From the NCBI GenBank assembly GCA_049724395.1, contig JAUGWO010000102.1:434001-470256 (forward strand): a stretch of DNA of 36,256 nucleotides, given 5' to 3'. The notes under the pieces were generated by a model. The model was not told where the DNA came from. It did not search any database and worked only from the letters and a program-made list of their open reading frames with translations. This stretch comes from Spongospora subterranea f. sp. subterranea. Taxonomy: Eukaryota. The translations under genes and the position numbers were made by a program. Each line of letters begins with the position of its first letter. Within the stretch, counting starts at the first letter, position 1. Positions 1-30,185 of this stretch are shown one piece after another.

Positions 1-1531
1 TGAAGGCACAAACCAGGCCCATCACGTAGTAAAAATTGGCATTTCCACAGCCAAGGTCGATCCACATTGTCCACATAACAGCGCTCATCGTGAAAGACAC
101 AATTAAAGCCACATAGACTGGCATTAGATTCCGCATTTCTGGTACATCGGTTAGCGAAATAAAAGCAAAGATTTGAGAGACAATACCTTTCAGAATATCA
201 TACTGTGTCAGAAGTAAGCAATAAACTATTCCAAAATCTCCTACGACAGGATACGGACGGAACATCATGATAAGATGCATAAATATAAAAAATAAGAATT
301 GAGGATTGTGCCAGAATCTAATTGTCAGCGGGATCACGTATACGAATACCTAAAAACACAATTGAACAACGCAACGATGATGAAGCGTTCATCCGTACCT
401 GTGAATTAAAGCAGATCAAAAAAAAGGAACGAAATCGGTGAAACATTTCAGTAACGAAGTACCAGAATATGCCAATATTTGGAGTTAAGTCGTGAACAAA
501 ATACAGATACCGATAGCTAAAAGACCACCACCTCGACGACCTAATAGAGACTGAATACGAATGTAAAAAATAAGAAATATGGCTACCCGAAGTAATGGGA
601 AGAAAGCGCGATCAGAGAAGCGAGGAAGCCAATACTTAATGATATAAACATCAGCATTTTTGCAGTAAGCGAAAATGGCACCGCATTAAGAGGAGCGTCG
701 CGCTTTGCAGCTGACGATAAATCTAATTGCTTGAAATGCAGCACGATCAAAATTGGAACCAAAAGAATGGCGTTGTACAGCTCTAGATAGACGGACGTTG
801 CGAATGAAAATGCAAGAGATAAAATATGGCCTAATATGCGGATAAGCTCAGCAATATTAAGCGATTCATTAGAATACCATTATATGTAGAATAGAGGGCA
901 AAAATAACGAAGACCTGTGATAGCGAAACAGTTGACAGTGATGCGCATGATAACAAAGTTAAGGGGTTGAACAAGAACCTAGCACGAATAGCAAAATTGA
1001 GTCCCAATTTGATGCAATCCGTCAGGCACAAACATTCTGAACACAATGTCGTGTAAGTTCGCTTGTTTGTGAATGCAAATTTCACTAACAACGGAGAGTG
1101 AGATGATATGAAACACTGTAGATGAAGATCATGAACCTGTTAGGGAAAGGAAACCCCATATCACGACTCCGCATAGTGACATTCCGAAGCATTGCGGCGA
1201 TGAATAAATCAATGCATATGAAAAAGAAGTGGATCAAGTGAATAGAACCCACGTCATTTAAGAAAGAAAGGAACGCGAAAAGCAGCGGAGGTTGGTGAAA
1301 TATATCCCCATCATAAATTGAGCGATTTTGAGAATGTAGGTACATTGCCTCCACCACTACAAAGCAAAAATTAATCAGAACAGGAGTAGAATTTGAGAGA
1401 AACAAAAACGTCCTACCTCGTCGGTAGCTAGAAGACGCACCAACAATTTGGACAGACTCTGAACTGTGAGAGGTGGTTAGCATTAGCAGATACCTGAGAG
1501 CTGCAGCTAATATGAGATCAACCCATAGCAT
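1..1531 (-). CDS. PIGU: GPI transamidase subunit PIG-U (Gab1/Cdc91), multi-exon, 3' end beyond window start
   Basis: Minus-strand exons give 'IYDGDIFHQPPLL', 'DLTPNIGIFWYFVTEMFHRFRSFF' (~425-495) and 'MWIDLGCGNANFYY' (~27-70), the conserved PIG-U motifs; many hydrophobic TM segments; ATG at 1531. Confidence 0.93.
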
Positions 1532-1670
1532 TGATAAAACGATCCGATGGGCAATGGATTATCCAATATGAGCCATGCGCAGGTTAAGTGGGTATCCAGT
1601 ATCCACAGTGCAGTGTGCCTTAACACCCAACTACGGATATGCGATGCGCCACTTTATCGTCGTTAAGATC

Positions 1671-2182
1671 AACAGGTGGCCCGAGATAGTTTTGCTGTAA
1701 TAGCCGAATCTTGTCCACTCCAGGCCATACAGAATCAACATTTTGTAACGGCCTAAATCTATATTCATCAGGGATGATCCTCTTTGAAGTACTGGAGCTA
1801 GATGAAGTGTTTAGACAATCCCAGCCCTCGATCCTACTGCTGCTCCCCCCACGTGTCTGCGTAATTTTTTGAAAAAATTTAGCGATCGAGTCAAAAATCG
1901 ACCAAGATTTACGACGGTAACTCAAGGACATGGACAAGATTTTCAACTCCAAGACTTTGACTTATCAACTTGCAACTTACCTTGCAACATCAAGGAGCTG
2001 TTGGAGTATAACAGAAGGCACATGGTCCTGTTCACCGGCCGGCGAACGCTTTCACATTGCAAAGTAGGTGACACGGTGATAGGTCAAAGTCGTTGGAGTT
2101 GATAATCATGTCCAGTTCCCGTACGTCGCCGTAAAATCTTGGTCGATTTTTGACGCGACTTCTTAATTTCGGGCCACCTGTT
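1671..2182. mobile_element. MITE-like non-autonomous fold-back element
   Basis: Terminal inverted repeats AACAGGTGGCCCGAGAT (1671-1687) / ATTTCGGGCCACCTGTT (2166-2182), 16/17 match; internal ~105-bp imperfect inverted repeat 1886-1992 vs 2053-2158; no recognisable protein; no clear TSD. Confidence 0.55.
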
Positions 2183-2911
2183 TTTATTGACCATCGTGTT
2201 CAGCTCAGATAGATGACCGCCTTTGGTTACTGGTATTCCCACACCATAAATCTTGATCGATTTTTGACTGGACTGAGATCAGATGTAAGTGGCCCTCAGG
2301 CAGGTGTTCTAACAAATGATTTCATGTTCAGGTCGGTGCTGAAGTCGTGTACTCTGAGATCACTCGTGGGATAATGGCAGTCGGTACAACGGAGCTGCGG
2401 CCTGTGACGCCCATTCGCTTCGTTGGTCAACGCGACGACGACCAGACTTCTGCAGGATGAATAACCACATTCCAGATATCAAACTGACCTGAGCTACTCA
2501 CAAAAAAATCAAAGTAAACAGACTTGGCTTGAAATATCGTGACAGCACTAAACAACAATTTGGTTCAAAGTGTTTGGTTTTCTGTGTCTTTGCCCCCAAA
2601 ATCAGAAAGAGGCAGTTAACTAAAACCTACAAATCATGTGATTTCCGTGAATAAGTCCCAGTGACTGCTTTGGAAACATCTCGAAGCCCGATCCTATCAG
2701 AAAAAGTACTCGAACGAATGTGTTTTGAGTTTGTACCTGAGACATTAGTTAGTATAACAGAAAACACGCAGATCCCGCATCGATCGCATCTGTTCATATG
2801 TCCATGACTCTCCAGTACTCATTGCAGAAGCACGATTGCCGTCTTCTGACACAGACGGAGACGCACCCGACCATCGTCAATCCGATATCTCATATCCAGC
2901 TGTAACACTAA

Positions 2912-2933
2912 AAACACACCGCACGGTGTGTTT
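2912..2933. repeat. 22-bp palindromic hairpin AAACACACCG-CA-CGGTGTGTTT
   Basis: Perfect 10-bp arms read directly; lies ~90 bp upstream of the maturase-like ORF. Confidence 0.85.
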
Positions 2934-3020
2934 CAGTCCCACTGACTCTAGCTGCAGTCGGCAGTAACCCTCATGCTGCCTGGCCGATAATCGTCATTCT
3001 GCATTGATCTGTTCCAGTAT

Positions 3021-5273
3021 ATGAACTACAACATCGTCCATTTGTCCCCGGATCGCTTAAGATATGGATTCGCTTGCCCAACGTGTATATGGGTCCATTC
3101 CTCTCAAACCAGCTTTGCGAACCGCCTTTATTCGACTGCAAGTTTGAATCCCCGCGCAAGGACCATGCAATTCCTACATATATCCAAGACATCGCACGCA
3201 TGGTCGAGAAAAGCATCGCAGAATGTATCTAGCTTAGCTGCGTTCTCAGACGCGCTGCCAAAATTTGGCAATTCCTTCGTTGTTCCTGATAGAAATCGTT
3301 CTCTCGCGTCGTCCGAAATTTCTTCGTTGAGATTTTCTGACACATTACCAGATTTGCCTTCGTCCGAAGCGGGCGCTAATCTCATGCCTTTTTTATGGCC
3401 AGAATATTCCGGCAACAATTATCAGCAAAAAGTTCCTGGCGAGCATCGAGGTTCTGTAACTACTCTCAGCGAGGAGGTTCCAAGCAGCGAATCCAGTCGA
3501 GGTCTTTACCATCGGCTGTTGAACCGTGATATTTTCCATTCATCGTTGATCCGTCTCCAGAACGCCCCAAATAGCATGATAACCCACGTAGAGCCTGGAT
3601 TATTGAATAATTTTATCGACGATCTCGTTGAACAGCTGCGGTTGGGCACATTTGCGTTTCTGCCAAAGCGTAATCGACGTGCAAGAACTAAATGCCCGAT
3701 CGGAGCTAAAAAAAAAGAACGCGATCGTAGGCCGCCAGTTGATGTGATCGTTCCTCCGATTTTTCGAGATCAACTTGTTTTACAAGCGATGACTACTCTT
3801 CTAGAGACGGTGTATGAGCCCAAATTTTCTCCGAATAGTCATGGCTATAGATCTACTGCTAGTGGATTATCGCGTCAGAGTGCATTGAAGCAGATTCGTG
3901 ACAGTTTCGGCATTTCTTCCTGGTTTATTGATGGGAAGCTTACGTACTGCATTGATGATCTTGACCATGGTTTCTTGTTTGAAATTCTTAGGAAAGAAGT
4001 GAAAGATGCCCGGTTCATTGCTCTTATTCAAAATGCAGTTAAGGCAGGCCTGTTAGAATTTCGTCGCTATGGTCGCATATCACTTTGCGAGACGCCGATG
4101 GGGACGAATCCGCTCAGTCCTCTACTAGCCAATATTTGCCTAAACGAGCTTGACATGTTTGTTGACATTCTGAAGAAAGATTACGATAAAGGATCTCGTC
4201 CTGGACTGAACCCAAAATTCAGACTCTGGCGTGCACACATTGATCGTTTGAGGCGTAATCCTCTCTCTGATCCTAAAGAAATTCGATCGGCATCAGTCAA
4301 ACTGCGAGAAATGTCTTTCGTAGATGAAATGGATCCCAACTTTCGACGTCTATTTTATGTTCGCCATGCTGATCGCATCCTAATCGGCCTACGTGGTCCG
4401 AAAGCTGACGCGATAGCTTTTGAAAATCACGTTAAACATTTCCTATCAAAAGTTTTAGGTCTTCCAGCGGACCCAAAAATCGTCAGCGTCAGGCACGCCA
4501 GATCAGAAGGGGTTGAGTTTCTAGGGACCGATTTGTATAAAATTTCGATCCGATCTCCGACAATGAACAGCACTCGCCGTATTCTACGTTTAATGGCCCC
4601 TAAGAAATCAATCAAGATGAAGCTGATCAATACTGGGTTTATCCAAGGCGAAAAGTCCAAGCCGTACTACTACTGGTCCAAATATTCTTTGGAGCGCATT
4701 GTTTGGCTTTACAGTGCTGTTTTCAAACGGATTCTGCGTCATTATTCCTTTGTTGCTAACACCAGCGCACTCGGAACGTATTTCCACTGGATTATTCGAG
4801 GATCTTGCGCCAAGCTTTTAGCGGCCAAATTAAAACTGTCATCGCAGCGAAAAATATTCACCCGATTTGGAAAATTCCTTTCCGTTGACAAGAATTTTCC
4901 ATTAGCGCGATTCTACCGACCTCAGTCATTCGCCAGAGCAGACCGCGATTCAGCGTTTCTGGAGGGTGAAATCGATTACGCTGTCAGTGTCGACGGTCGT
5001 AGAGTCGGGTTCATTGACGAGAGCGTTCTATGCGCAAACTGTCAATTATGTGGTGCGTCTGAGAAAGGGCAAATCCACCTTCATTCTGTTATTTCGTTTG
5101 CAACTGATTTGGATGCACAATTTCGTCACCTGGTCAGGCGCGAGAATAACATCCCGAAACCAACCAGGTGGAATCAGATCGCTTTATGCCCCGACTGCAG
5201 CTTGAAGTACTGCAGAAAAAGCCGACGTGCTGAACGCAGAGACTCCTGGATCGACACAGCCAACATCGAATAA
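3021..5273 (+). CDS. Nuclear-encoded group II intron maturase-like protein (RT0-RT7, X/thumb, degenerate HNH), RT predicted inactive; start may be ATG 3165
   Basis: 'RDQLVLQAMTTLLETVYEPKFSPNSHGYR', 'WFIDGKLTYCIDDLDH', 'LSPLLANICLNELDMFV', 'YVRHADRILIG', 'EFLG', X-domain 'RGSCAKLLAAKLKL...RFGK', C-terminal 'CQLCG...NQIALCPDC'; collinear with mitochondrial-type group II intron-encoded proteins; single exon, standard code. Confidence 0.93.
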   Translation: MNYNIVHLSPDRLRYGFACPTCIWVHSSQTSFANRLYSTASLNPRARTMQFLHISKTSHAWSRKASQNVSSLAAFSDALPKFGNSFVVPDRNRSLASSEISSLRFSDTLPDLPSSEAGANLMPFLWPEYSGNNYQQKVPGEHRGSVTTLSEEVPSSESSRGLYHRLLNRDIFHSSLIRLQNAPNSMITHVEPGLLNNFIDDLVEQLRLGTFAFLPKRNRRARTKCPIGAKKKERDRRPPVDVIVPPIFRDQLVLQAMTTLLETVYEPKFSPNSHGYRSTASGLSRQSALKQIRDSFGISSWFIDGKLTYCIDDLDHGFLFEILRKEVKDARFIALIQNAVKAGLLEFRRYGRISLCETPMGTNPLSPLLANICLNELDMFVDILKKDYDKGSRPGLNPKFRLWRAHIDRLRRNPLSDPKEIRSASVKLREMSFVDEMDPNFRRLFYVRHADRILIGLRGPKADAIAFENHVKHFLSKVLGLPADPKIVSVRHARSEGVEFLGTDLYKISIRSPTMNSTRRILRLMAPKKSIKMKLINTGFIQGEKSKPYYYWSKYSLERIVWLYSAVFKRILRHYSFVANTSALGTYFHWIIRGSCAKLLAAKLKLSSQRKIFTRFGKFLSVDKNFPLARFYRPQSFARADRDSAFLEGEIDYAVSVDGRRVGFIDESVLCANCQLCGASEKGQIHLHSVISFATDLDAQFRHLVRRENNIPKPTRWNQIALCPDCSLKYCRKSRRAERRDSWIDTANIE

Positions 5274-5607
5274 AACGCTTGTATTATATTGGTTTCATAA
5301 CGGTTGTCATTTCGTTTTCATTGATGTTCCTGGCGTCAGGGCGAATATTCCTCGTTTTTGCGGTTCAGTTTTGGATTTGACCCTGAGACGGGAACTGGTT
5401 CTTGCCGATATATTCAGGTGCCGAATTCGCTGGAATATCTAACGCTTTGCTAGGCCTGCTCAGGGCACCGATCAATCGTTCTAAGTGAGGGTGCGTGAAT
5501 CACGCCCGAGTGGCACGCGTTTTGAACCATCATTGGATTCTGACCCAGCGAACTTGCACAAAATCCTCAGACTTCAGACCGGTGTCCAATTGTCCCGGTA
5601 CTGTCGA

Positions 5608-6378
5608 ATGAGAGAGGCGAAACTCTTGCACACGTACAAAGAGCCATGGCATTTGGTCATTCAGGCTTACCAGCAGAGATTTGAGAACCTGCCCCATCCA
5701 CGAATTCCTGCGTTGCTTGGGGCAGAATTCGACAATTTCGCATACGAACCGTCATCTCAAGAATTGTCGTGGGTCGTTCTTGGACAAGTCGACGTGCCTG
5801 TGGCATCGTGGGTGAAAAAACTGTCTGGGTGTTCCCATTGTATATTCCGGACCATAAATACGATCAATTATTCAGCGAGAACGCTGAAAATCCGAATCAC
5901 GAACGACGACTTTAGGCACATCGCCGTCGTCGAAGAGAGCAACTGCTTCAGAGTCCATCCCGAGAATGATCAATGGACTGAGTATGAACAAGTATCGCGA
6001 TTGACTATTCGATCATTGCTCGGGATGCAATCCCAGGTTGAGGGGATTGTCATGAAGTCCTATTCCGAGGTGATAATCGCCCCATCACCTGCCCCTACGC
6101 CGTTAACCAGCTATTGTTGTCTGATTTAGAACTACGAAGCAGGTAGGTCTGTGGACAACGAGTTCATCCAGAAACTACTGGGCGCCGGCCACCTCCCTCG
6201 CCGAGGATATCTGGAAGCGATGACGGTCGCCCATCTGAACGAGGGAGCGACAATACCTTTCACACATATGGAGCATTCCATCACCGCATTGCCCTATTCC
6301 GCCAAGGAATTGGATATCGAAAGCGAAGATGATTCTCAAATCAATCAACCTGATGCAGTCAAACTGCATCATCTGTAA
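5608..6378 (+). CDS. PRELI/MSF1 domain protein, 2 exons (5608-6069, 6130-6378)
   Basis: 'HTYKEPWHLVIQAYQQRF..P.P.IP' and 'EESNCFRVHPENDQWTEYEQ' match PRELI/MSF1 (SEC14L N-terminal type); a 60-nt GT-AG intron at 6070-6129 joins the frames. Confidence 0.85.
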
Positions 6379-6454
6379 TTTACCTAGACATTATCGTTTT
6401 CATACGTTAATTATTATACGACATATATTCTAAACAGATTTTGTCGATCGGGTA

Positions 6455-7878
6455 TCAATTTGCTTGAAGTGGCGGTAGGTTGGGGTTGAGGAGATAGCAT
6501 AGAATATCGTTGGTGACCTTGGGGTGTTGTTCTTCTCGGGCGGCGATCGCCGGGATCAAACCCATAACACGTAGGGTATGGATTTGCGAATGGATAATCA
6601 ACAGTATTGTGGCGATCTCGGGGACTTTCCAACCGCTTTCCCTGATCAAAAACTTCTCCAGATCCTCATATATTCTTTTTAGCTCGCTGATCCAGTAGAA
6701 TATCGACGGGTGTTGCCAGCGCTCCATTGTCGAGCAGACAACCCATATCCTCCTCAATATGGATTTGTCTTTAGGTTCCAGATTTTTCACCTTCAAGAAT
6801 GTGTAGTCTTCGCTAGAAGACGTCACACTGGATCAATACAGAAACTAAATGGTGATTTGTTGAACAACCTACAGATTGTTGAATGAGCGCGAGCGAGGAG
6901 ATGGAAATTCGCGTTCGATAACCACGCCAAGATCGCGAACCTTGTAGATATCGGACGAGGTCTTTTCCCATGCTTGTTCTATCTTCCGGCAGATATCGTC
7001 GATTCCACACAGCATGCAAGCGGATCTGCTCTTATTGGATGTCAGCTTCAGCTGCGCCTGATCCGCACTGCCGTTTGCCGATTTGACAGAACTGACGGCC
7101 ATCGCTCGGGCCGTGATCCTTTCGAGTTGTCGATCGGGAATCAGAACCGACAGGAGAAAGTTCACCATGACGTCTTCGGCGATGTAGGGCAATCCAGTAA
7201 TAAGCGGATTATCAGAGCCCAGCTGGAGAATATTCGTCGTCATTTCAATCAGCTCGGGCTTACCGATTTCTTGCAAGCGTCCGTCATCCTCGATCCATAA
7301 CCGCATCTCATTTACCCGTTTTCTAACGGCCGCAACTGCACACACAAAACCCAGCTGATTACTTACCAATCGCTGATCGGCGTGAACCAATAGCCGAACC
7401 TTTGTGGCAGTTGACCTGGTTGTAAAAGTGACATAACCGCACCATGATCGTCGATGGCGTCTGCCAGAGCTTGTCATTGAACACCCAATGGAGATCCAGT
7501 ACGATGTCATCGGGAGTCGACCCGAGTTCCTCGGCCCATTGCGTGACCAGTGCCAGGTCAATACCAGATTGCCCCATCAGATCGACGATTGGCCTCATTT
7601 CAGCGCGCATTAGGATTGCGATAGAATATCGCGGTACCTGATGAACGATCCGGCCAGCGACCGAACTGTGCCGGTCACATGAGATATCGTGGAAAACAGG
7701 ATTTCGCTGCGGATACTGCAGTTCGCGTCTGATAGCGCATATCGATCTCGCGAGTATTGTCGAGGGGCGACCGATGCCACAGCAATCAGAATCTATTGGA
7801 CGTTGTCTCATTTGTGGATGTCGAATAAATAGAAAGAAGTGATCAAAGCTGGGAGCACGTTTGGGATAGCGCAAACAT
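6455..7878 (-). CDS. Hypothetical multi-exon protein (start uncertain)
   Basis: Three consecutive minus-strand ORFs (7359-7874, 6869-7561, 6455-6826) with globular composition, joinable by short introns; no family recognised. Confidence 0.55.
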
Positions 7879-7941
7879 GGTCATCGGTGGCTCATTGATT
7901 CCACAGTACCACCATTGTTTGTTTACTTGCAAGTGCTACCG

Positions 7942-8004
7942 GTCAGAAGGGGGAAAGACGGCTGACGACCCTGTCAGAAGGGCGAAAGACCAGCAGAAGA
8001 CCCT
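7942..8004. repeat. Two-copy ~31-bp imperfect direct repeat (GTCAGAAGGG.GAAAGAC..GC.GA.GACCCT)
   Basis: Units 7942-7972 and 7973-8004, in the intergenic region between divergent genes. Confidence 0.75.
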
Positions 8005-8584
8005 TTCAATCAACGACTCAGTTGCAGCTAAAATGGGACAAAGTAACTTGATAAACTGACTTACCCAGGTTCATTGTTTGAAGGAATGAGCAAAGCTGGA
8101 AAATAAGGAACTACTGTGTTTCTCCCGACAAAGGAATACTAAAATTTCAGGCAAAGCAACGTTTAGTAATCAATCTTCGATGTTTGCGTTGGATTTACTC
8201 AAACATGTTCAAGTCAAGTTGATCGTGACTTGGGATGAACGGCGATTTGGAACTGCTCTTTTTCAGGTTTATGGCAAAAAAGCGCGCGCGTTTCCTCACT
8301 CTTGCTGGGCGCGGACAGCTGACTGCGGTGAACGTCGTGGGACTTATCCACTGAACAGTCTGTAAACTGGTGTGGGGAGAGTGAGATTGTCGAGGACACC
8401 GAAGCGCGCAGCGCTCATTGATCATTGCGCGGCTCTGTGCCTGCCTGCTATTGAAACCCTGTCTTGAGTTCATCCGTGCACCTCACAATAACGTTCTTCG
8501 CCTAATCCCGGGACCATATTCGATTGGGGTCCGGTGTCCCCTTTCAAAGACAGAGAGATTGAGGTCGACCATTCCAAGTTGAAC

Positions 8585-11500
8585 ATGGTGCTGCCTCCAG
8601 AGGAATTCGCCAAGCATCGAGCGTCGTTTGGTGACATCGTACACATAAAGAGCAACGGCAGAGATGGTCAGTTCTTCGCGTCAGTCAGAGATTCCTGACA
8701 GTAACTGTTTTCTAGGGGCAAGATTCCCTGCATATAAAAGAGCGGTGATCTTTGGAAGGTTTGCTATCGTATAACTTATGACACAATCCATCGTATAGCT
8801 AATGGTGATATGTTTCTAGCGGAACTTGCTGCGATATTCGAATTTTTGCCATCAATGCGCGCGAGCAACACGCTTCGTTGATGTTTGATTCAAAAGGATT
8901 CGCTTTGATCATGAATTTAGATCAGCAAGCAAACACGATCCTAAACGGTGTTGAAATCTCCAAGCCGACATTGGTTGGTCACATGAACGTGTTCGTAGTC
9001 GGCGACAGATTTTTTCGACTTGAATATGGTACTTCTGGATGAAACCATATTGCTATTTCTCGCTAATGCCTCTACAGCGCCTCATGTCTCGTGTTTATTT
9101 GATCCAAACAAACGTCTCGACAATACTCCGTTAAGTGTCGTTCAGAGCGCCTTGCCAGTCGACACTGTGGCGGTTCCGTCTCAGACAGAAGCTATTGGAC
9201 ATGATATCGTCGACTCGAACGTTAGCCTAAAACTTACTACTAATTCGCTCAACCTGTATGCTCAGCATTAAGCTTATCTTCGGTGTTTTCACTCAGAGCA
9301 AATTGGTCAGGACAAAACGCGAAAATTTTGCCACCTGCAACTCTTGAAGGCGAATCATGTTCTAACAATGCCGAATTTTTGTCACCTACCCGAACAAAAA
9401 GAACAAAACGGATTGCAACTCCAAAAGCTTTCCCAACTCCTGTGAAAAAATCCCTTCGCTCAATTTGCATGAAACCAATCCATCGGGGGCCTTCAAATCA
9501 ACCTGTAGATTTTTCTGTTGAACAGGATGTCGAACCAGTAGTCGATTCTGTACTGCCCTCAGTTGAACCGATCGATTCATTGTCAAAGGTCCGAGAAGAT
9601 ACAGAAAAAGGAAGTTCAGACAATGTATCTCGCACATCACTCCTAAGAGTTGCACGCAAACATGCCATGACACCCAAACCGTTTCCTCAATCGGTTCGTC
9701 AGTCGCTTAGGGTTCGCCGGGCTTCGTGCGCCAGTTCATTACTATCCGGTCACAACGAGTCCGTGTTTCCTTCTTCGAGGAAAAACTGTTTATCGGAATT
9801 ATCTTCAAGCTCGATAGCCTGCAGACCTGGATATGACAAGTCTGAAATCGAGCGGCTTGCAGATGATGGCGTAAATTCGCTACATCTGAGCAAATCTAAA
9901 GCAGATTTCGTCGCACAGGCAAATGCGGTGCATGAAAAATCCCATGTTGCACCGGAACAGGAACCAGTCTCACGCGATGCTTCTCCACCACACTTCTCAT
10001 CAATTGACGCACTTGCTTCAGCCTCGGTGCATAAAGGAGATATATTTTCTTCTTTGCCTGCGTCGCCTGTTGTTTGTGCATCGTCCGCTAGTGTCATTAC
10101 TGTGGACTTTTCTGCCATCGGGACGGATGCGGAGCTGCAAGGTTCTGGTAATTGCGCTGACGAACAAGACGGTATGTAAACATGTGAACACCCAAACAGC
10201 ATTAACAAAGTATGAATTTTTACAGATTCTCCTCCTGAAGAAACAATCGAAGCGACTGGACCCGGGACGTTGGAACACCCTCCAGTCCAAAATGATGGCA
10301 AGCACCCAATCTTTATCACCTGTTCTTCTGAGTCGAGCGTTAATTGCTCTGATGTTGTTTTGCAAGACGCAATGGTTTGCGAAGGTACGCCAGGAATCAG
10401 ATCTGTTTCGAATTCGATAACGACGTTGAATGTAGAAGACATGCAACCCTGCCTAATTGAAGAATGCGAGAAAGTCAACAGAACAGTTACGGCACAGCAG
10501 AAACTTTCTGAATCTGTTTCACCACTTCTCTCACCTAATCTCCCTACTCAATGCTGCAGTTCTTCTTCGAGCCCTCGCTGTACACCAAATATTCTCGAAA
10601 ACGTCAGCATGTCCCTCGTACCAACAAATAAAGGTTACCCAGATGGCGCGGGTAGTCACGATGTTGCCATCGCGGTCGTCATTGATATTGCGCGCGAGGA
10701 CATCGAAAACATTTCGTCCCAGCTTTCTCCCAATTCATCGCCTGATTTCGACGCCAATCCGATATCATCCCCGCCTGTGGCTCCTCAGCTGTGCCATGAA
10801 TCCTCCACTTCATCAGCTTTCATCAATCGACCGGAAACTTCTCAGGCAAATACTCCTGTTTTGAAAGACCCATTGCAGGATTTTGGCGAACGCGCCATGC
10901 AACTGCCGCCTGTTACTCCCCAGAAACTTGTTGAAGCAACTGGGCCTTTGAGTTCTTACGATCAAGTGGACTTGAAGAATGATGTCGCCACTCCGGAATC
11001 AGTCTACGCTACCAATGTTATTACTGTTGACATTCAAGACGTTTCTGTTTTCGACTACAAAACAGGTGGCATTCCAGACGAGGTCACCGCAATATGTTCC
11101 TTGACGCATGCCAAAGATGTTGTGACAGACGATGAACCGTCATCATTAACAGTTTATCCAACAACACAAAGTACTTGCAGAGTAGGATCGACTTGCGCGA
11201 GTTTTGTTCCTGAGTCTTGTGACGGTACTATACCTGAAGCGCAGTTATCGCCCGGTTCTGTTGAGTATCCTGCAATTAGTCCTCCGCATTCTTGTCACAA
11301 GGTTCCTGATGTGATTGACTCTAATTTGGAAGTTTATTCTTTGACCGGCAATGGTCCTGTTGCTGCTCAAGGTTGTGAAGGCGACGATGTGCTTGAAGAC
11401 GGTGTAGTGGTGGCTGTTGAGTCTGATGCTGGCACACGTGGAGCTCAGTCTTCATCCACCCGTAATCTTAGTCTTACAGGTTCGTCTGTAATCACGTATG

Positions 11501-13637
11501 ATAGCCAATTGGCCAATGACAACCTCGACCCCATAATTCTACCTGGCAATGATGCTATTGCAAAAGCTAACACCCGCATGGACTCCTTTCGAGAACGCCC
11601 TACTCTTTGCCTCAATGATACCGTCGAACTTGTAGACTCTATTGTTGTCACCAATGCGAGTCATGTTGATGGCATGCAGGAGGTCATGATGTCATCATAT
11701 CCCCCAGGTGTTCTCGTCCCTATTCAATTACAAAATTGTCCACAATCGCACGTCCTATCTGATGTTAAGAAAAGTGAAAATACCAGCAGTCAAGATCACA
11801 ATGGTGCTGACTCTGCTATCATAGAGGGACCGATTTGCTCCCTGAGTGACGTATCTGCTATTGCCAGCAACGAGGTTTCATCCAAAATCCAGAAAACCAC
11901 ATTTGCAGACGTCGAACTTGTAGACTGCATTGTTGTCACCAATGCGAGTCATGTTGATGACATGCAGGAGGTCATGATGTCATCATACTCCCCAGGTGTT
12001 CTCGTCCCTATTCAATCACAAGATCACGTCCTATCTGAAGTGAAGAAAAGTGAAAATACTTCCAGCAGTCAAGACCACAATGTTGCTGACTGTGCTATCA
12101 TAGAGGGACCGATTTGCTCCCTGAGTGACGTATCTGCTATTGCTAACAACGAGGTTTCATCCACAATCCAGACAACCACATTTGCAGATTCTGTCAGCCC
12201 ATTCAAAAGACTTCCAGATGATGGCTTGACCAGTGTTGAAGCTGAATCGTCAATATCCTCTCAACAATTTTATAACCCTTATTCATCGAGCCTCGTACAA
12301 GATGAATCAGTTTTTCCTGTGTGTTTTGCAGAAGAGTGTCCAAATTCAGCTGTGCAAGATGGGCAAGATTCAATAGCAATGCAATTTCGCAAAAGGAAGC
12401 TCCCACACGCTCCAACGTCTTCCTTAAGGGTTGAACTTAATCACGATCCACTTCAGGGCAACCTTGTTCCTGTCGCAGAACTTGTCGACCACAATTCGCT
12501 TCCTACTGCGAACAAGCGCAGTCGAACTCACCAAGTTTTAGCAAACAGTCCCATACAATCTCCTCAAAATCAAGGAAACCTTCCAGCTCACTCTGATCGG
12601 GTCCAAGTTTCCGATACTAACAGTGACCACGATGATGATCATGCTGACCGCATTCAAGTTGCTGTTACTGAACCCGATCAGGTTGATGTTCAAGACTTGC
12701 TGTCTCAAGGCAAAAGAGACGCAAGTACTCCTCAAGCTGTGGTCACGAGTCCACTACATCCTAATGAAGTACAAACACTTTGCACACAAAATCAAGGAGA
12801 CTTCAACGACCATGCTGACCGGATCCATGGTGCTGTTGCTGACAACAAATCCTTTTCTCTGGTCAAATGCGGGGCAAGCAATCGACAAGCGCGATCTCCC
12901 ACTGTTTTCTCAAACTCTCCGAGGCAGTCTAAAGAGGCAGAGTTATCTAATGAAAGCGTTTCTGGAGAGCAAGCATCTAGTCGCAGCATGAGGAAGAGTA
13001 AAAATCTGCGAAAACAGTCCCAAAGGGTAGCTGATGTCTCAACTGCATGCATTAAGCCTGAAAAAACCACGAGGCGAAAACTTGAGGTCGATTGCCTTTC
13101 ATCCGATAACGCTCCTGAATTGGATGATCGTCGGCAAACGCGTAATTTGCGTAATAGGTCAACCGCTGTGGCGTCCAAAAACCCGGCAATGGACGCGTTA
13201 TCAAACAGAATGAACCAAAAAACATTGTGGAAGAGATATTGGGCGATTTTGCAGCACCTAACAAAAGGGGAAAGGCTAATACTGTTGAAGTGGATGGTCC
13301 AGAAGCAAACACTCATGGAGACATTGGCAAACCGCCCAAAACGCGCCCATTACGTGCCTCATTAGCTGTCGATGCACATGTTGGAGAGAATTTCCAGCAA
13401 AAGGATGTGCAGACTAGAGTTGGAGTTGCAACTCGAAGATCTTCCAGGATCGTGGAAAAATCTGTCGTTCAAGCTCCTGAAGAGGTCAACACTGAAGCAG
13501 CACAATCTAAAAAAGAGACAGAGGTCGTGTCCCGAAGAATTAAGAAAAACAAAGAAAATTTTACGCCCAACAAACTTTCACCTAAACGCCCAGTCCGAAG
13601 CGTGGCAACCACACGGTCGCTTCGAAGTCACTCGTGA
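8585..13637 (+). CDS. Ki-67-like protein: N-terminal Ki-67-type FHA domain plus long disordered S/T/P-rich region and basic C-terminus
   Basis: Splicing introns 8667-8715, 8759-8819 and 9029-9077 gives 'FGDIVHIKSNGRDGARFPAYKRAVIFGSGTCCDIRIFAINAREQHASLMFDSKGFALIMNLDQQANTILNGVEISKPTLVGHMNVFVVGDRFFRLEY'; continues through ORF 9283-10179, intron 10172-10225, ORF 10270 onward, and frame 13227-13637 after a probable 1-nt homopolymer error near 13180. Confidence 0.8.
11623..12189 (+). repeat. In-frame tandem duplication (288 nt + 279 nt; ~96 and 93 aa)
   Basis: 'VELVD(S/C)IVVTNASHVD.MQEVMMSSY...TTFAD' occurs twice; units 11623-11910 and 11911-12189. Confidence 0.95.
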
Positions 13638-14073
13638 AATATCGAACACCTTAGGCATCTTCAACTATATAAATATATATCAATTGTCGTTATTATTGTT
13701 GCAATGCATATTAGAAAGGTTGGACATGATTTGAGAGTCCAGGCGGGGGCATCGTTTTTATGTTTTGGTTCAATGAGAAGTTCCATCAACGACAGCCATT
13801 CCCTGTGGAAAAGCGATTGATGTGAAGTTGTTGACATGATGAAATAATCGGGAAGATGGTGTGTCAACTTAACCGGTAATACCCTGTAATACCGTACACC
13901 ATTTTACGAAATTTAGAGTGGCAGGAGAGACCCCGTAAAGTCAAACACTAATTCGAAAGCGCGACAGAGGAAACTGTCCCCTTTCACAAGAACCAGGAAC
14001 CAGACCACATTCATTCCTATTGCAGTACCATTTACGACTTGGCGAGCAATTGCAAGTGGTTAGGGGATCGGTA

Positions 14074-19351: not shown

Positions 19352-21619
19352 ATGGTGAAGTTCGGGAAGTATTTGTCAATATCGGCGATTCCAGAATGGC
19401 ACTCGCAGTATCTGAATTACAAGCAGCTGAAGAAGATTCTCAAGCAACTGAAAAATATAGAATCGCAATCCGCTGTCCCAGACGATAGCCTTCCCAGGAA
19501 TGTTCGAGTGTTAACAGACGCAACAGGCCGAGCTTTTATGGTAAATATTAGCGACAGTCCGGTTGGCGAGGATCATGCCGCAGCACTAGGTACGCTCTTT
19601 CCTTCATAGGATTGTTTAGTCTTTGCTAACTACTGCTTTTCCATTGTGAAGATACTCTTTTGCCAGCAAACATTGACCATCGTGATATTGAACTCGTGTT
19701 TTTCCGATTCCTTGAATCAGAATTACAAAAGATTTCGCGTTTCTTCAGAGACCAAGAGGAATTTTTCTGTTCGCAAGTGGAAGCAATGACTGCCAAAGCC
19801 CACCAGAAGAGACAATCGTTGAAGAGGGATAAAAAATTTCATGGGAATAAGTTTCGCCTAACTTGTCAATGGTTATTCCAAGGTCTTCAACATCTACAAA
19901 ATTTTCATGTTTTGAATTACGTCGGAATCGCCAAGATTCTGAAAAAGCATGACAAGATTTCTTCGTGGAAAACGTCGAAAGACGTTATAATGCCCGTTTT
20001 GAGCCATCCTGACCGATATCCTCCTCTTGATATTGTCTTGAAGCTCATGAAGAAAGTCCAGGTATTTGAGTCCGTTAGGTCTGGCCTCCGCTCGCTAAAC
20101 TCGAATTTGTTTTCTAGGAGGAATTTGTCAGTTTATATACGGACGGGAATCACTCTGCCGGTGTTGAAATGTTGAGGATTCTACCCAAGAAAATGTCCCA
20201 TGGAACATCATTTACCGCTGGCGTCACTGTCGGTTTATTGATAGCGCTGATTGGCGTCATCGCAACAATATTCCTTCTGAACCCTCGACACGAAATTCCG
20301 GATGAGTTCCTTGCAGCATTTCCCCACGTTTAGGTTTCTAATTCTACTTGTGTTCGCCCTAACTGTATGGGGCGTCGATATTGCGATATTTGCCAAGAAG
20401 CAAATCAATTATGGATTTATAATGAATGCCGATCCTAACACACTTCTACGAAGCAACCAGATTATTCTAATTGCAGCGTCAAGTTTCGTCCTTGTTCTAT
20501 CTTGCCTTACACTCTTTCTGGTCGTGACTCTCTTCTCGACTAATTCTCACGTTGATTCTGGAGTGTTTCACCTCTGCGCGTTTGTTGCACTGTTTCTGAT
20601 GATGTTTTGCCCATTCAATATTCTATTCCGCCGGACCAGAGTCTTCCTTCTGCAAACCTTCTCATCGATCATCGTAGCGCCGTTTTCAGCAGTGCAGTTC
20701 CAGCATTTCTTTTTGGCCGATTTTTTAACATCGATGGTTCGCGTGTTTTACGACCTCAACTATGCTGTCTGCTTCTACGTCACGGGAGGGTTTCTCAGCC
20801 ATTCGATGGAAATGTGCACCCATTCGGTATCCGTTGGTCGATGGGTCCTCGCTTTTCTGCCATACTGGTGGCGTTTTGCCCAATGCCTTCGACGCTATAT
20901 GGACACCAAGCAATCGTTTCCCCATCTTGCGAACGCTGGCAAGTATGCTGCCGCCTTAATGGTCACCTTTTTCTCACTTCTTTGTAGGTCTCCAGCCCCT
21001 CTGTTTATTTCTCAGTAGTTCCTAACCTGATATACAGCTGATTCATATAAAGGGAATACCAGCTTGCTGATCATCTGGATTGCTGTTGCCATTGTAGGCA
21101 CTGCTTTTTCTTTTGGCTGGGATGTTCTCATGGATTGGGGTTTGGCTGAAAAAGGGAGTCCACATTTCTTTCTTAGGTCCAAACTGTTGTTTTCGCCTTG
21201 GGTAATATTTGATAATCGTTTCATGAAGCGATATCCTTAACGTTTTAGCGTTATAGGTTTATTATTTTGCAGTCATCACCAACCTACTGCTTCGTGTAAC
21301 CTGGGTATTCACGATTTCGCCCAACAGTATCATTTTCGTCAACCACGAAGTGCTTCTACTAGCCCTGTCGATTGGAGAGATCTTACGGCGTGGGCAATGG
21401 GTGATTTTTCGTGTAGAAAACGAGCATCTTAATAATTGCGGTAAATTCCGGGTCGTGAATGAGATACCGATGGAGATGAGCGCACATCTTCCTCAAGCGG
21501 GGGACGACGACGAATACGAGCGTATCGACGGCACTGTCAGCACGCGCAGCAGAACGAGACCAGATGCGCTGATGTTGGAAAGAAGATCACTCTCTTTTAC
21601 AGATTCAAGAAAAGATTAA
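19352..21619 (+). CDS. XPR1: SPX-EXS phosphate exporter (XPR1/PHO1/SYG1 family), multi-exon
   Basis: SPX 'MVKFGKYL...PEWHSQYLNYKQLKKILK', 'LNYVGIAKILKKHDK'; EXS 'FFLADFLTSM', 'PYWWRFAQCLRRY', 'HLANAGKY', 'WDVLMDWGL', 'EILRRGQWVIFRVENEHLNNCGKFR'. Confidence 0.96.
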
Positions 21620-22109
21620 TTTTGTGTCAGTCAATATCCACTGTATATTTATCAAATGACCTGTTTCATAAACACTATATATTCTGCGATTTCGTCAATA
21701 TCAAGTAAATACTACTTTTCATCCACCATCATGTTGTTGCGCAGTACGCTAAGATCGGCAGCGCAGCTATGTCGACAACCATGGTTGGAACTTCTTCATC
21801 AGGCGATGTCAAACTTTGCGGATGATCAACCCAGATGAGCAATTTGGGGCCAGCCTTTGTTGAGTTGGAAATTGTCAGAAAGTTGGCCCTCATCTCCAGT
21901 TGTCCGTGACGGGTCTATTTCGTTTCGACCTACGTTTCTGCACATTGCCGTGTATCGGGAGGGAGTCAGGTGACCCCGCTGGTTCAGTGCACTATTCACT
22001 CTCAATCGGTTCATCGTATGCATTAGGATTGCGGCTCGGGGTGGACGATTTGCTGCACCACACCTCGGCAACGGTGACGTTCGCGGGAGTCGACATCGCC
22101 CCGTTCATC

Positions 22110-25100
22110 ATGTTCCCGTCATCCACACCTGACGACTTACCGCAATTATCACAAGCCACTGAGAAACTGGCACAATCTTTTCTCTCAGATGAACAGAAAC
22201 AGGTGAAACTTGACAACTATGTTTATCAGGTAAATTCATCGTTTGCGTTTTCAACGGAATCTACCCAGTTATTGTTCGGTTGCGTTGTAGGGTGCAGCGA
22301 TGCACTGCGAACGGTATGCCTATCTGCCGCAAACAATTCTGGATCAGTATGATCGTACGTTGATGCAGCGCCGAACAAATCTCAGACTGCTGACTGTTTC
22401 GGCTCAGGTCTTGAATGCAAAAGCTTTCTTGGCATTCTTCCCGAAATCAATAGAGTTTACATCACCATTGACAATAGGTTGTTTCTGTTCAACTATAACG
22501 ACGGGTCTGTATTCCAACAGACTGGGTCTAGTTTGCCCTGATTTCATGTTTAGGTCGGTGTATGCTTATGATGATTTTGATCAAATCATAATCAGCGTAG
22601 CGTTGATAACTCCAAAACCAGGCGTCTTTATTGATGAAATCGAGTATCTGCTTGTCGTCGCTACGACATCAGAAATTGTCATCCTTGGCGTCTGCTTTGA
22701 AGGCGGTTCACAATCTGGAGATATTGAATTAAAGAAAAGTCAGTTATCGGAACTGCCCTGTCGCTGCGGTAGTGACGTTATATGTTGCAGCGTCATACTA
22801 TGCTTGTTCCGATGGTGTACATATGCTAAAGATTGTCTGCACTCCTCCCCCGTCATCGAGAATTTTTGCTGCCGGTAATAGATGTCACGAACCAATCACT
22901 GGTTTATCAACGGTGCGTAGGCAAGGATGGTCGTGTTTATGAAATTGATTATTCACCTGGCTCGAGATGGTTTTCCAAAAAATGTCGGAAATTGAGCCAC
23001 ACGTCAATGTTGGTAGAACTTATCACTGAACAATTTTTGCCGTGATATTGATTTTTGAAAGGACCGATAAATTATCTGTCCTCTTTCCTGTATTTAGTCT
23101 TTTTCGTTCGACTGATCCTCTGGTGGATTTGATTGTGGATGATGTCAAGGTGCTCCCTGTATCGGCACTGCTCCTATTTTTCTTACATGTGCTCAGTGCA
23201 ATCTTTACGGGTTGAGCAAATCTAGCTGTCTTTTCAAGTACGAACTAGGGACTGGAAAGTTTGATGAATGTCTAGGGCCGATCATTACTGATAGCTCAGA
23301 AATCAAACGGAGCCTTGGCGCCGACGCTGGAACTGATTTCTCTATAAGTAAGTCAAATAATCAGAATTTTAATGTCGAACTGGAGCATGCTCCATTTGTT
23401 GAGCCGCATTCCAACTGAATGTGCTGATGATTGTTTTAGTTGGTTTATCCGTGCATCATATGTTCCCATCCAGTGACCTATGTGTTATTACGAATCATGG
23501 TCATCGTGTTTTCCTGAAATCGACAAAGGGCGAGCCATTGGTTGTTGAATCTGTTCGTATATGCCCAAGATACATCGATGCACCAAGCTCTGGGACAATA
23601 CGGAAAAAATATAAACCTTTTTTCAAGTAAAGGTATCTTGCTGTACTAGGCAGCTTCTAAATACTGAGACCTTCATTAGGCCAAAGCCCCTCTGATGTTA
23701 GATCGGCAATATACGCCAATGGGAACCTTCTTGTTGCAGATATGCGTGATCCTCAGTTTGATACGCTGATTGCGGTATCGTTGATTAAGTCAGGTGATGA
23801 TTCGTTATCGGCAACGGCTTCTGGTAATACACAACCGATGACGGCATCTGCAGATGAAAATGTCGAAAGCCATACTCTCGGTATCACATTGTCAAATGTA
23901 TGTCAATTTTCAGCTTATATTCGATTTCCAAGATTGTCGTGTTCACGATATTAAGGCCGCACCCATTGGTGGCTTTTTGAATAAAGCGCCTCTGGCTGCC
24001 ACATTGCTTCGAAACTCGAGCTCTCAGGTCCCAATGGCTGGCTTATCGCCGCTTGCTTTTCAGCATGCGGTTCCAGCTCCTAGATTTATCGTCCTCACTG
24101 CTGCAAGGGTCATCATTTACTCATTGAACCGTCCAATTGAGCAGGTTTCAAACTTTGTGGATTTCACTGCACCGCCTAGTCAGTTGATTTTGTTATGATT
24201 TAGGTATCCGATCTGCTAAATTCCGAACATAGTAGTTCGAGTTTACTAGAATTAATGAAGAAATTTGGGATGGTTGAATCCTGCGCTATGCTGCTGAGCA
24301 TTATTTGTTGCCCAAAAGTTGTTGATTTTGACAAACCGAGTCATTCCACGAGTCAGGGAATATATATCATTCAGGTAAAAACTAATTTTCAAACACATGC
24401 GTCACCTATAACGTATTTTTTGTTCAGGATCGTCGTAACGAGGCTGCACCTGAACGCAATTTTACACATTTTGATCAGAATCAAACTGTTAGGCAGGCAG
24501 CCATTGATGCGTTTATAACTTTTGGAGGAGAGTCTTCTTTTCAAGTCAACAGTGTGCGTATTCGGCTGTTCCCTTGTTCTGTGCTGCAACTGATTGTCGT
24601 GCAATCGTGAATCAGCTCGATCACAATGTCACTTGTTCGTTTGCGCATAACTCGTTGTATCTCACCACTTCGCGGCTTCTGCGCTCGATTTGGTTCACAA
24701 GCCTGGTATTTCGAGATCAACACCAAAACGCAGTTTCGCCTACAGCCGCAGGCTCAGTCTGAATTGCTTTACTCTCTGACCAATCTTTATCGTTTCATTA
24801 GCGATTATCAACTTCCCAAGGTAAATTCGACCACCTCATCGATATTTTCTTTGCTCAGAATTTTTAGTGCCGACAAGCACAAGCTCATGATTTTGCAGCC
24901 GGCAGCGTAGAGCTAAGTTCAACGAATGCTTTGCACAAACTTATCTCGAGGACCATCGAAGTATTAATTTTCCCTTATATTTTAATTACTATAACTTATT
25001 TATGCTAGGTATTACGTCTTTGTTTTCTGCTTTGTCAATCAGAATGCCTTCCCCAAATTCTTCAAATTATGGATAACGGGGATCGCTTCACGTTAGAATC

Positions 25101-27281
25101 GAGTGCGTTCAAAGACATCATGGGATCGGTATTGTTTATTGACTTTCTGTTTTCTGTTTGGTTCATTGCTGCGAAGTCTCAGGGAATTAAGTGTTTGCAG
25201 AGTTTGATTCGTGCTTTCATGGAAGTTGAAGGTAATTGGGTACGCTCAAACTTTGTCGCCTCGTTGGATTTGATTTTTTTGCAGGTGGATTGTCACTCGT
25301 TGGCCTTTTACGAACGTCATGTCCTTCTTTTATCAACGCTAGTGATCTGTAGGCAGTCGCTTTCACCGACCATTTGTACTGTGACTTATCATGAACAATA
25401 GTTATTTGTTCAATGGCAATCAGCTGCTTGTAGATGCCAAATCACAAAGACTTGAAAGAAAAGCTTCGAAACTCCACCAAGATGCGTTGGAATGCTTCAA
25501 AAAGGTTTTTATTTCATGATGTTTATGATTTGCAGCACCATAAATTTGGTCTCTAGGCGTCAACTGATATCGAGTTCCCGCTTGCTTCCGTTGTGGCGAA
25601 ACTGATGGTACTGCCGAGAATGTTCGTGCAGGTTATTATCTTATTCTTTGTATAGGAACGTGGACGACTTACAGATGTAGTAGAACTGTGTTTATGGCGT
25701 GCGTCGTCACTGGACCGCAGCACTTCCTCAACCGAATTTTCTAGTGAGGAGAGCAGGCTTCACATGCAATCCATCGCCTTACGACAAAAAGCTGCTTATC
25801 AGGTTGAACCCCCTTTTGTGTTGTTCTTTGTTGTCATTAACGTACCTCATACCTAGATCATCTGTAGTTCGCTAGATGAAGCGATTTCATCAACCTCTTC
25901 GGCTTTTTCTCAGCAAGAAATCAAAGCATCTCTCGCCGCCTGCTTTCGAACATCATTGCATTCTTTTTTGGAAAACTCCTTTTTCCCCTTCTATGCTCAA
26001 AAATTTGACTCTTCATATGATATTGAGTGTCAGCCGTTCCAAAGTTATCTCGTCAAGCATCAACAGGTGTCTATAGGAGACTGTCCATGAGATACACTCG
26101 TTTAATGTTTTGACGTAGTTCGATCGCCTTCATCAGTATATGGCTGCTCTGGAGAAGTTCGGTGACGGGGCAAGGTTTTTCGCTCAGTTGCCAAATAATA
26201 TTGAACTGTCCGGGCATCACCTCAACATCAGGGATAGAATCCGGTACGTTGGTGTTGTTGGAACTGATGAAAATTTCAATTTTGCACTTTAGGTTTTTAG
26301 AAATCGCAATGGAACTAAGCCGGCATAGCAGCGTAGAAGATCACTCTCTGAAATCCGAGTTAAGGAAAGCTGTGGGAACTAGGAGAAATTCAATCACAGA
26401 TAATCGGTAATCTCATCGTCGAAGAAGAAGGGAGAAATCAAGTTGCTGGAGGAGCACCACCGGGACCAGGCTCTGGTGGCACTACAGATCTGTCTCTTTG
26501 TTTATCTCAGCTTCTATCGGGTCTGTTTTTTTCCTCAAGTGCGCCATCTGAAAGCCCTTTGACATTTTTCTAGGTGATGCACTCTATGATATCGCGTGCA
26601 GGCACAACCTGTTCGAAATGTGTCTTCGCATATTGTTCGTAGAAGATAGTCGCCAGCATCGTGACGTTGTCGCTGCATTATATTCAAATATTATTTCGTC
26701 AATTATTCAAGAAAAAGAAGGTCACAACGCTGATTGGAGGTACTTGCTGATAGTGTGGATATACATTCTTTTTAATAACATTAATTAGAATTGCGGTGAA
26801 AGAGGTCGTGTCCAGACTTGGGCGCCAATATCGTACTTCTGCGTTCATGTTCCCAGCCTCGCTAATATGCAACCTGCTCGAACAGCACAATATCACTCGG
26901 GCGGTCTCGCCTGCTGATGTAACTCCATCTTTCGTCGCTCCTCTTCTAGTGGATCTGGTTCAATATCCCGTTGACCAGTTGATCACCATATACTCTCGAA
27001 TGATCGAACAGTAAGCATTCATCGGTTTCTGCTGCCCGCCTGACATTGAATTGTGTGGTAGTTGGTCTCTGACCCGAATTCCTCTTTTTGGGTCGATTCA
27101 ATATATTTTGGCCCCTGCCAATGTCGATGCATTATCAGGCAGTCCCCTTCTGTATTCTCATATGGTTGCCAGTGCTGCTGATTTATGTGAATTTTGCCTC
27201 AGCTTCACTGATAATCCTTTTCGTGAACAATTCTCTCGTCTCAGGCAAATCTATTTACAGAAGAAAAATCTGGGCATATAA
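22110..27281 (+). CDS. NUP155: Nucleoporin Nup155/Nup170, many short exons (start approximate)
   Basis: 'LGILPEINRVYITIDNRLFLFNY', 'YDDFDQIIISVALITPKPGVFIDEIEYLLVVATTSEIVILGV', 'GKDGRVYEIDY....WFSKKCRKLSHT', later 'LRTSCPSF'; helical C-terminal half; stop at 27281. Confidence 0.92.
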
Positions 27282-27367
27282 AGTACACAAAATGTTTAAT
27301 TGAATTTTAATTTTGCCGATTATTAGACGATTAATGAATAAATCTGGGATCACGGCCGCTTTAGGCT

Positions 27368-30166: not shown

Positions 30167-30185
30167 AGGCAACGATATGTTCTAT

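What the first reader, a model, noticed from the sequence alone, without database searches (positions are those of the whole stretch)
3021..5273. Stand-alone nuclear group II intron maturase: candidate domesticated organellar splicing factor outside plants
Seen: a complete RT0-RT7/X/En architecture as an uninterrupted 750-codon ORF between ordinary spliced nuclear genes (PIG-U, PRELI). It is intronless while the recognised neighbours have short introns, has nuclear-like base composition and the standard code, and I can find no intron domain V/VI after it. Known: group II intron-encoded proteins normally lie inside organellar or bacterial introns; free nuclear versions (nMAT1-4) are established in land plants, where they are imported into mitochondria and splice in trans. 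Inference: an independent endosymbiotic gene transfer and domestication in a non-plant protist, giving a trans-acting maturase system that parallels the maturase-to-Prp8 transition.
Basis: partly seen in the sequence, partly recalled or inferred. Interest (0 to 1): 0.9.

Follow-up and report, generated by a model that had tools for sequence, protein, structure and literature searches.

The report
Nuclear intron maturase outside plants
Two plant-parasitic protists (the potato powdery-scab and clubroot organisms) share a nuclear gene for a group II intron protein that has lost its reverse-transcriptase and nuclease active-site residues and is likely imported into mitochondria to help splice their introns, an arrangement I found described only for land plants.

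Summary
The ORF is real: 750 codons at 3021-5273, no stop. It matches a Spongospora subterranea record (CRZ10348.1) at 748 of 750 residues and sits among nuclear genes. No Rfam match lies anywhere in the window. Synonymous GC equals that of nearby exons, and all 10 Trp codons are TGG, whereas the host mitochondrion reads TGA as Trp. The decisive result is a full-length orthologue in Plasmodiophora brassicae (PBRA_001207, 36% identical, tree support 100/100). Its record lies on a 1.37-Mb contig, and it carries an inferred 62-nt GT-AG intron. Both proteins have lost two of the three RT catalytic aspartates (YADD reads HADR or HADQ) and have a degenerate HNH site. Both keep the RT fold, domain X and four cysteines, and both start with a basic, acid-poor N-terminus. 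Both hosts have intron-bearing mitogenomes; P. brassicae has 54 introns and 12 intronic ORFs. Best reading: a domesticated trans-acting mitochondrial maturase that works like plant nMAT3/4 and probably arose separately. Import, RNA targets, the class of the S. subterranea introns and the donor are untested, and the tree does not reject a link to plant nMAT2.

The parts
3021..5273 (+). Intronless 750-codon gene for a group II IEP-derived protein (matches S. subterranea CRZ10348.1; orthologue of P. brassicae PBRA_001207)
3021..3248 (+). Presequence-like N-terminus (residues 1-76: 8 R/K, 1 D/E, 18 S/T; R-x-Y-S-T at 35-39); import is predicted, not tested
   Evidence: P. brassicae N-terminal 60 aa have 9 R/K and 1 D/E
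3498..4550 (+). RT0-RT7 fingers-palm region, degenerate
3936..3938 (+). Motif A catalytic Asp replaced by Lys (K306; Asn in P. brassicae)
4209..4214 (+). N397|P398: site where the P. brassicae orthologue has an inferred 62-nt phase-0 intron; none here
4365..4376 (+). YADD motif read as HADR (HADQ in P. brassicae)
4587..4883 (+). Domain X (thumb/maturase), Pfam Intron_maturas2
4896..5225 (+). D/En remnant: four Cys kept (674, 677, 723, 726), HNH site degenerate, no Pfam HNH hit
1..1558 (-). Context: PIG-U gene, divergent from the maturase, with candidate short GT-AG introns (runs off the window)
5608..6378 (+). Context: PRELI-family gene, start codon 334 nt after the maturase stop (end approximate)

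Best explanation
[quoted passage not shown] Shown: nuclear context, nuclear codon usage, an orthologue in a second genus, loss of catalytic residues in both, retention of the RT fold and domain X. Inferred: an ancestor of the two genera moved the ORF of an ML-type mitochondrial intron to the nucleus without its ribozyme; the ORF was recoded for the standard code and gained a presequence; the RT and X surfaces bind and fold intron RNA as in LtrA, while RNA catalyses splicing. The divergent RT0/RT1 would fit relaxed specificity for several introns.
For: Orthologue P0262 = PBRA_001207, 667 aa, longest contig 1,368,189 bp; 209 of 577 residues identical; clade 100/100 in two careful trees; 31 shared derived residues, and RHAD-not-D occurs only in P0001, P0002 and P0262 of 284 proteins held. 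Of 79 near-invariant positions in 24 reference IEPs, 43 are kept in both, 20 changed in both (including D306, Q360, Y449, D452) and 16 in one. Inferred intron: the genomic read-through proteins P0187 and P0264 leave the annotated protein after residue 314, begin with Val (GTN), and their last 13 codons are the shifted reading of the next exon, giving 62 nt with AG as one of two possible ends. Two P. brassicae variants differ at 2 of 572 exon residues but 3 of 20 intron read-through codons (p 3e-4). GC3s 0.427 against 0.429; 10 of 10 Trp TGG; both mtDNAs are about 26% GC and read TGA as Trp. A neutral copy stays stop-free in 1 of 1000 trials at 0.1 substitutions per site. Substrates: P. brassicae mtDNA has 54 introns, 12 intronic ORFs and 7 (Rfam-supported set) to 45 (MFannot) group II calls; S. 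subterranea has 5 introns (cob 2, nad1 2, nad3 1) and one RT-type gene, rdp. The orthogroup has 1 S. subterranea member and none in 18 other rhizarian data sets; two chlorarachniophyte mtDNAs lack introns. Plant nMAT3/4 show comparable dead D-En regions.
Against: No localisation, binding or splicing data. Targeting rests on composition and one motif, and intact mitochondrial IEPs also carry basic N-terminal extensions with similar R-x-Y-S/T motifs (P0003, P0095). I saw no source that classifies the five S. subterranea introns as group II. P. brassicae still has its own intronic maturase ORFs, and the host's rdp gene could supply maturase activity. Between the two orthologues domain X (43/106) is no better conserved than RT5-7 (28/67) or RT2 (20/50), so the X-specific retention seen against intact IEPs (47/104 versus 54/104; catalytic parts 78/229 versus 135/229) rests on one comparison chosen after seeing the table. 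Deep placement is unresolved. The protein ids were not found in the supplement of one S. subterranea transcriptome and proteome paper. Only two genera are represented.
Confidence: 0.72

Rival explanations
1. A domesticated RNA-binding protein with another job, such as stabilising, processing or translating mitochondrial RNAs, helping group I introns, or working in the nucleus or cytosol.
For: It is kept in S. subterranea, which has only five annotated mitochondrial introns of a class I could not establish. Conservation between the orthologues is spread over the whole RT fold and includes 31 new shared residues. The four cysteines of a dead nuclease are kept.
Against: Domain X is intact, both N-termini look like presequences, the sister species has many group II introns without ORFs, and the family was not found in rhizarians that include species with intron-free mtDNA.
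Confidence: 0.17
2. The function is the same, but the gene came from a host plant nMAT by horizontal transfer into these intracellular parasites, so it is not an independent domestication.
For: Both species live inside plant cells. AU tests do not reject a clade with Ricinus nMAT2 (p 0.17; p 0.46). No nMAT3/4 sequence was available to me.
Against: Similarity is higher to intact mitochondrial IEPs (34% over 592 aa, 306 bits) than to nMAT2 (25% over 421 aa, 114 bits). The D/En remnant is absent from nMAT1/2. No free tree joined the pair with nMAT2 or with the Sphagnum protein P0207. P0003 and P0087 are fused to cox1 and to a nad-type exon.
Confidence: 0.07
3. A recent NUMT, a decaying retroelement relic or an assembly chimera with no function.
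For: The gene is intronless here, its neighbours differ from those of the P. brassicae gene, a fold-back element lies 850 nt upstream, and the right end of the window looks misassembled. I have no reads across the junctions.
Against: An intact orthologue with an inferred spliceosomal intron exists in another genus; codon usage is nuclear; there are no TGA codons; an independent record is 748/750 identical.
Confidence: 0.02

Closest known systems
Plant type II nuclear maturases nMAT3 and nMAT4 (Arabidopsis)
   Same: Free-standing nuclear gene, about 750 aa, RT + X + D-En with an inactivated endonuclease; imported into mitochondria and splicing in trans (bioRxiv 2020.10.20.346734, passages).
   Different: Rhizarian host. 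RT catalytic aspartates are lost here as well. Probably a separate transfer, but nMAT3/4 were not in my trees. Import and splicing are untested here.
Plant type I nuclear maturases nMAT1/nMAT2 (Ricinus nMAT2, P0093)
   Same: Degenerate RT motifs (YGGH in place of YADD in P0093), domain X, nuclear gene.
   Different: 25% identity over 421 aa; nMAT1/2 lack D-En; never joined in a free tree, although AU does not reject the join.
Pelargonium nmatRT/nmatRX and moss nuclear maturases (Physcomitrium mat-nuc1; Sphagnum P0207)
   Same: Lineage-specific transfer of a mitochondrial maturase to the nucleus, recognised by nuclear neighbours, introns and predicted targeting (PMC5174742, PMC10012718, passages).
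   Different: All are streptophytes; nmatR is split in two; P0207 does not group with this pair.
ML-type group II IEPs (LtrA of Ll.LtrB; mitochondrial cox1/nad intron proteins P0003, P0087, P0088, P0095)
   Same: Domain order RT0-7/X/D/En, fold, 32-37% identity.
   Different: Those lie inside a ribozyme and mostly keep EGDI, PQG, YADD and the HNH histidines; this gene has no flanking ribozyme and lacks those residues. The ML label is recalled from the LtrA match, not assigned by a call.

Membership tests
Mobile group II intron (IEP inside its ribozyme) | Ribozyme domains V/VI after the ORF | tested here: not met
   0 Rfam matches; no D5-like pattern in 1-12000; 3' flank z 0.37
Mobile group II intron (IEP inside its ribozyme) | Active RT: motif A Asp and YADD | tested here: not met
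   D306K and HADR; Asn and HADQ in the orthologue
Mobile group II intron (IEP inside its ribozyme) | Active HNH endonuclease | tested here: not met
   No AI2M-like_HNH or HNH hit, whereas P0003 has both; HH pair reduced to one His in both orthologues
Group II IEP-derived proteins | RT0-7 fold followed by domain X | tested here: met
Nucleus-encoded trans-acting maturase (functional class of nMAT) | Free-standing nuclear gene kept intact by selection | tested here: met
   Nuclear neighbours, GC3s, TGG-only Trp, orthologue at 36% with an inferred spliceosomal intron; dN/dS not computed because no orthologue DNA was held
Nucleus-encoded trans-acting maturase (functional class of nMAT) | Expressed | tested here: inconclusive
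   Record CRZ10348.1; Schwelm 2015 deposited an S. subterranea transcriptome, and that this accession belongs to it is recalled; no reads examined
Nucleus-encoded trans-acting maturase (functional class of nMAT) | Mitochondrial targeting | tested here: inconclusive
   Basic, acid-poor N-termini in both orthologues; no predictor available
Nucleus-encoded trans-acting maturase (functional class of nMAT) | Host organelle has group II introns without their own maturase | tested here: inconclusive
   Literature only: supported for P. brassicae; intron class unknown for S. subterranea
Nucleus-encoded trans-acting maturase (functional class of nMAT) | Binds and promotes splicing of organellar introns | not testable with these tools
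   no data
Plant nMAT1-4 orthology groups | Groups with nMAT1/2 or nMAT3/4 in a tree | tested here: inconclusive
   Not joined to nMAT2 in free trees; AU p 0.17 and 0.46; nMAT3/4 not sampled
Recent NUMT | Mitochondrial composition and code, decaying frame | tested here: not met
   GC 45.7% against 26.8%; 0 TGA; intact orthologue; direct comparison with the mtDNA sequence was not possible

The most novel reading that the evidence does not exclude
Plasmodiophorids independently turned a mobile intron protein into a single nucleus-encoded, catalytically dead general maturase that serves many degenerate mitochondrial group II introns (up to about 45 in P. brassicae). It would be the first such system outside green plants and a separate replay of the step from intron-specific maturase to general splicing factor.
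Probability: 0.45. Interest if true: 0.82.

Novelty: new variant of a known kind. Interest (0 to 1): 0.72.

Why it matters
The reviews and papers I read in passages describe nucleus-encoded group II maturases only in land plants (PMC4424553, PMC8393795, PMC7912774, PMC10012718). A second, probably independent case in Rhizaria would show that the cis-to-trans domestication invoked for Prp8 can be repeated, and would allow a comparison of what is lost (RT and HNH catalysis, RT0/RT1 specificity) and what is kept (RT fold, thumb, cysteines). It also gives a candidate answer to a question left open by Stjelja et al. 2019: how the 54 mitochondrial introns of P. brassicae, most without an ORF, are spliced.

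Tried and rejected
Three word-based homologue searches missed the P. brassicae orthologue. It appeared only in the exhaustive phmmer search, as a 347-aa fragment far down the 150 listed hits (P0187), so further orthologues below that list would be missed. A metagenome scan gave one weak 53-aa match (L001), not followed up. No whole genome was held, so copy number and the host mtDNA could not be searched. No sequencing reads were examined. Supplement searches for the protein ids or 'maturase' found nothing in PMC8471823, PMC4815078 (2 files unreadable) and PMC4471660. An ESM Atlas search returned only IEP and nMAT-like clusters; the search with the orthologue did not complete. Two AlphaFold models (mean pLDDT 60 and 57) are confident for RT and X but not for the N-terminus or D/En, so no structural claim is made about the cysteine site. 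The gradient of conservation across alignment columns is not used as evidence of selection, because a neutral relic would inherit much of it. The fold-back at 1875-2169 was considered as an intron remnant and rejected: it is one long hairpin with no Rfam match. Look-ups of earlier findings by place and sequence were empty.

Full report
Observation. The frame 3021-5273 gives 750 residues with no stop; 100 shuffles of the window gave at most 236. Pfam finds domain X at 523-621 and a sub-threshold RVT_1 match, and no HNH family. LtrA aligns over residues 160-689 and is the best fold match for the predicted model. PIG-U lies upstream on the other strand, split over several frames with short GT-AG candidates, and PRELI starts 334 nt downstream. 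WD40, SPX-EXS and nucleoporin genes follow. Rfam finds nothing in the flanks or the window, and the 3' flank is not structured.

Identity. The protein matches S. subterranea CRZ10348.1 / A0A0H5R890 at 748 of 750 residues. Schwelm et al. 2015 (PMC4471660, passages) deposited a transcriptome of this species; that this accession comes from it is my recall. I examined no reads, and no whole genome was held.

Not a recent NUMT. The ORF is 45.7% GC. Synonymous third-position GC is 0.427, against 0.429 for 1825 codons of nearby exons, and all 10 Trp codons are TGG. Both plasmodiophorid mitogenomes are about 26% GC and read TGA as Trp (PMC6823432, section 7 part 1 and supplement 1 part 3). Random substitution leaves the core stop-free in 31 of 1000 trials at 0.05 changes per site and 1 of 1000 at 0.1.

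Orthologue. Table S3 of PMC6823432, which covers the 9,231 nuclear genes of P. brassicae, has one row labelled Type II intron maturase (PB314BT04403_1). Its group has one Spongospora member and none in 18 other rhizarian data sets, some probably shallow. The exhaustive search (5828 hits at E<=0.001, best 150 listed) contained P0187, whose cluster holds P. brassicae PBRA_001207 (P0262, 667 aa, longest contig 1.37 Mb). That P0262 is the Table S3 gene is inferred. It is 36% identical over 577 residues, shares indels and 31 derived residues, and forms a 100/100 clade with the window protein in 31-row and 17-row trees. No other member of this clade was among the 284 proteins held.

Intron and selection in P. 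brassicae. Genomic gene calls P0187 and P0264 follow P0262 to residue 314, continue with Val and 19 further codons, and end in 13 codons that are the shifted reading of the next exon. This implies a 62-nt intron beginning GT, with AG as one of two possible ends. It is inferred from proteins; I did not see the DNA. The two variants differ at 2 of 572 exon residues and 3 of 20 intron codons (p 3e-4; two variants, one short intron). The window gene has no intron at the matching site (N397|P398).

What was lost and kept. Among 79 near-invariant positions in 24 reference IEPs, 43 are kept in both orthologues, 20 changed in both and 16 in one; a few of these lie in uncertain alignment. Changed in both are the motif A aspartate (K/N), the PQG glutamine (M/L), and Y and the second D of YADD (HADR/HADQ). 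The HNH histidine pair is reduced to one His, while four cysteines remain. From established RT and HNH chemistry both activities should be gone; this was not assayed. Against intact IEPs, domain X is as similar as IEPs are to each other (47/104 versus 54/104) while the catalytic parts are not (78/229 versus 135/229). Between the two orthologues, however, identity is nearly flat: X 43/106, RT5-7 28/67, RT2 20/50, RT3-4 31/85, RT0 18/56, En 20/65. The whole RT-thumb scaffold is therefore maintained, not X alone.

Targeting. Residues 1-76 have 8 basic residues and 1 acidic residue, with R-x-Y-S-T at 35-39 (its likeness to an R-3 cleavage motif is recalled). The P. brassicae N-terminal 60 residues have 9 and 1. 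The two extensions do not align well. This is suggestive only, since intact mitochondrial IEPs have similar extensions.

Substrates. P. brassicae mtDNA has 54 annotated introns, 12 intronic ORFs, and 7 or 45 group II calls depending on the method. S. subterranea has five introns (cob, nad1, nad3), one rdp gene and two intergenic ORFs; two chlorarachniophyte mtDNAs have no introns. I found no classification of the S. subterranea introns and did not see Gutierrez et al. 2016.

Origin. The top hits are metagenomic IEPs with mostly intact motifs, including proteins fused to cox1 (P0003) or to a nad-type exon (P0087). Before the orthologue was added, the query grouped with P0003/P0087/P0088 at 90/88 and 92/94, and a clade with bacterial relatives was weakly rejected (p 0.04). 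With the orthologue, the 31-row tree leaves the deep position open and the 17-row tree places the pair with these IEPs at 89/94. A clade with nMAT2 is not rejected (p 0.17, 0.46). The trees used 17-33 hand-picked rows of those held, and no nMAT3/4, MatR or plasmodiophorid mitochondrial IEP. A mitochondrial origin is likely; independence from plant nMATs is likely but unproven.

Mechanism. Most likely (0.72) the protein is imported into mitochondria and binds and folds group II intron RNAs through its RT and thumb surfaces, so that introns without their own maturase splice. Rivals: another RNA-related function (0.17), a plant-derived nMAT (0.07), a functionless relic (0.02).

Literature. Ten full-text searches of the open library were made. 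'Maturase' with 'Phytomyxea' returned only PMC6823432, whose two main-text uses of 'maturase' concern mitochondrial ORFs; six accession terms returned nothing. Passages of PMC4424553, PMC8393795, PMC10012718, PMC7912774, PMC5174742 and bioRxiv 2020.10.20.346734, and the first third of PMC5457027, place nuclear maturases in land plants only. PMC7194472, PMC9887622, PMC12883290 and bioRxiv 335406 were seen as passages and add nothing on this gene. Subscription papers (Guo and Mower 2013, Mohr and Lambowitz 2003, the Spongospora and Polymyxa genome papers) and bioRxiv supplements were not seen and could mention it. The databases label both proteins only 'Domain X domain-containing protein'.

Verdict. 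A real, conserved, apparently undescribed nuclear maturase-like gene of plasmodiophorids that works like plant nMAT3/4 by inference. New variant of a known kind; interest 0.72.

Noticed in passing
window 1875-2169: Nested inverted repeats form one long hairpin (-128 kcal/mol, z -12) between PIG-U and the maturase, with a further copy of one arm at 2247-2274; MITE-like fold-back element.
   Followed up: partly
window 26698-30186 and 32783-36256: A 3.5-kb inverted duplication, 98-100% identical in segments broken by small indels, around a 23-nt tandem array (31911-32779, 37.6 copies); it may be a long-read fold-back misassembly.
   Followed up: no
window 3021-5273 against P. brassicae gene ids: In P. 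brassicae PIG-U (08365), a PRELI (08428) and Nup155 (08325) have close ids while the maturase row is 04403. If ids follow position, the gene moved in one lineage; with the missing intron this could be an RNA-mediated relocation in Spongospora or an intron gain in Plasmodiophora.
   Followed up: partly
P0207 cluster: A 649-aa Sphagnum maturase with degenerate motifs, on records with contigs up to 17 Mb and conserved in several species; probably a moss nuclear maturase.
   Followed up: partly
window 9244-13734: Long Ser-rich open frames (311 and 1049 codons) with a 279-nt tandem duplication at 11622-12188; not annotated here.
   Followed up: no
window 6455-7880 (-): A gene convergent with PRELI; none of the four frames scanned had a Pfam hit.
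   Followed up: partly
window 19630-21619 and 21864-25401: An SPX-EXS phosphate-exporter-like gene and a Nup133/155-like nucleoporin gene confirm the nuclear context.
   Followed up: partly
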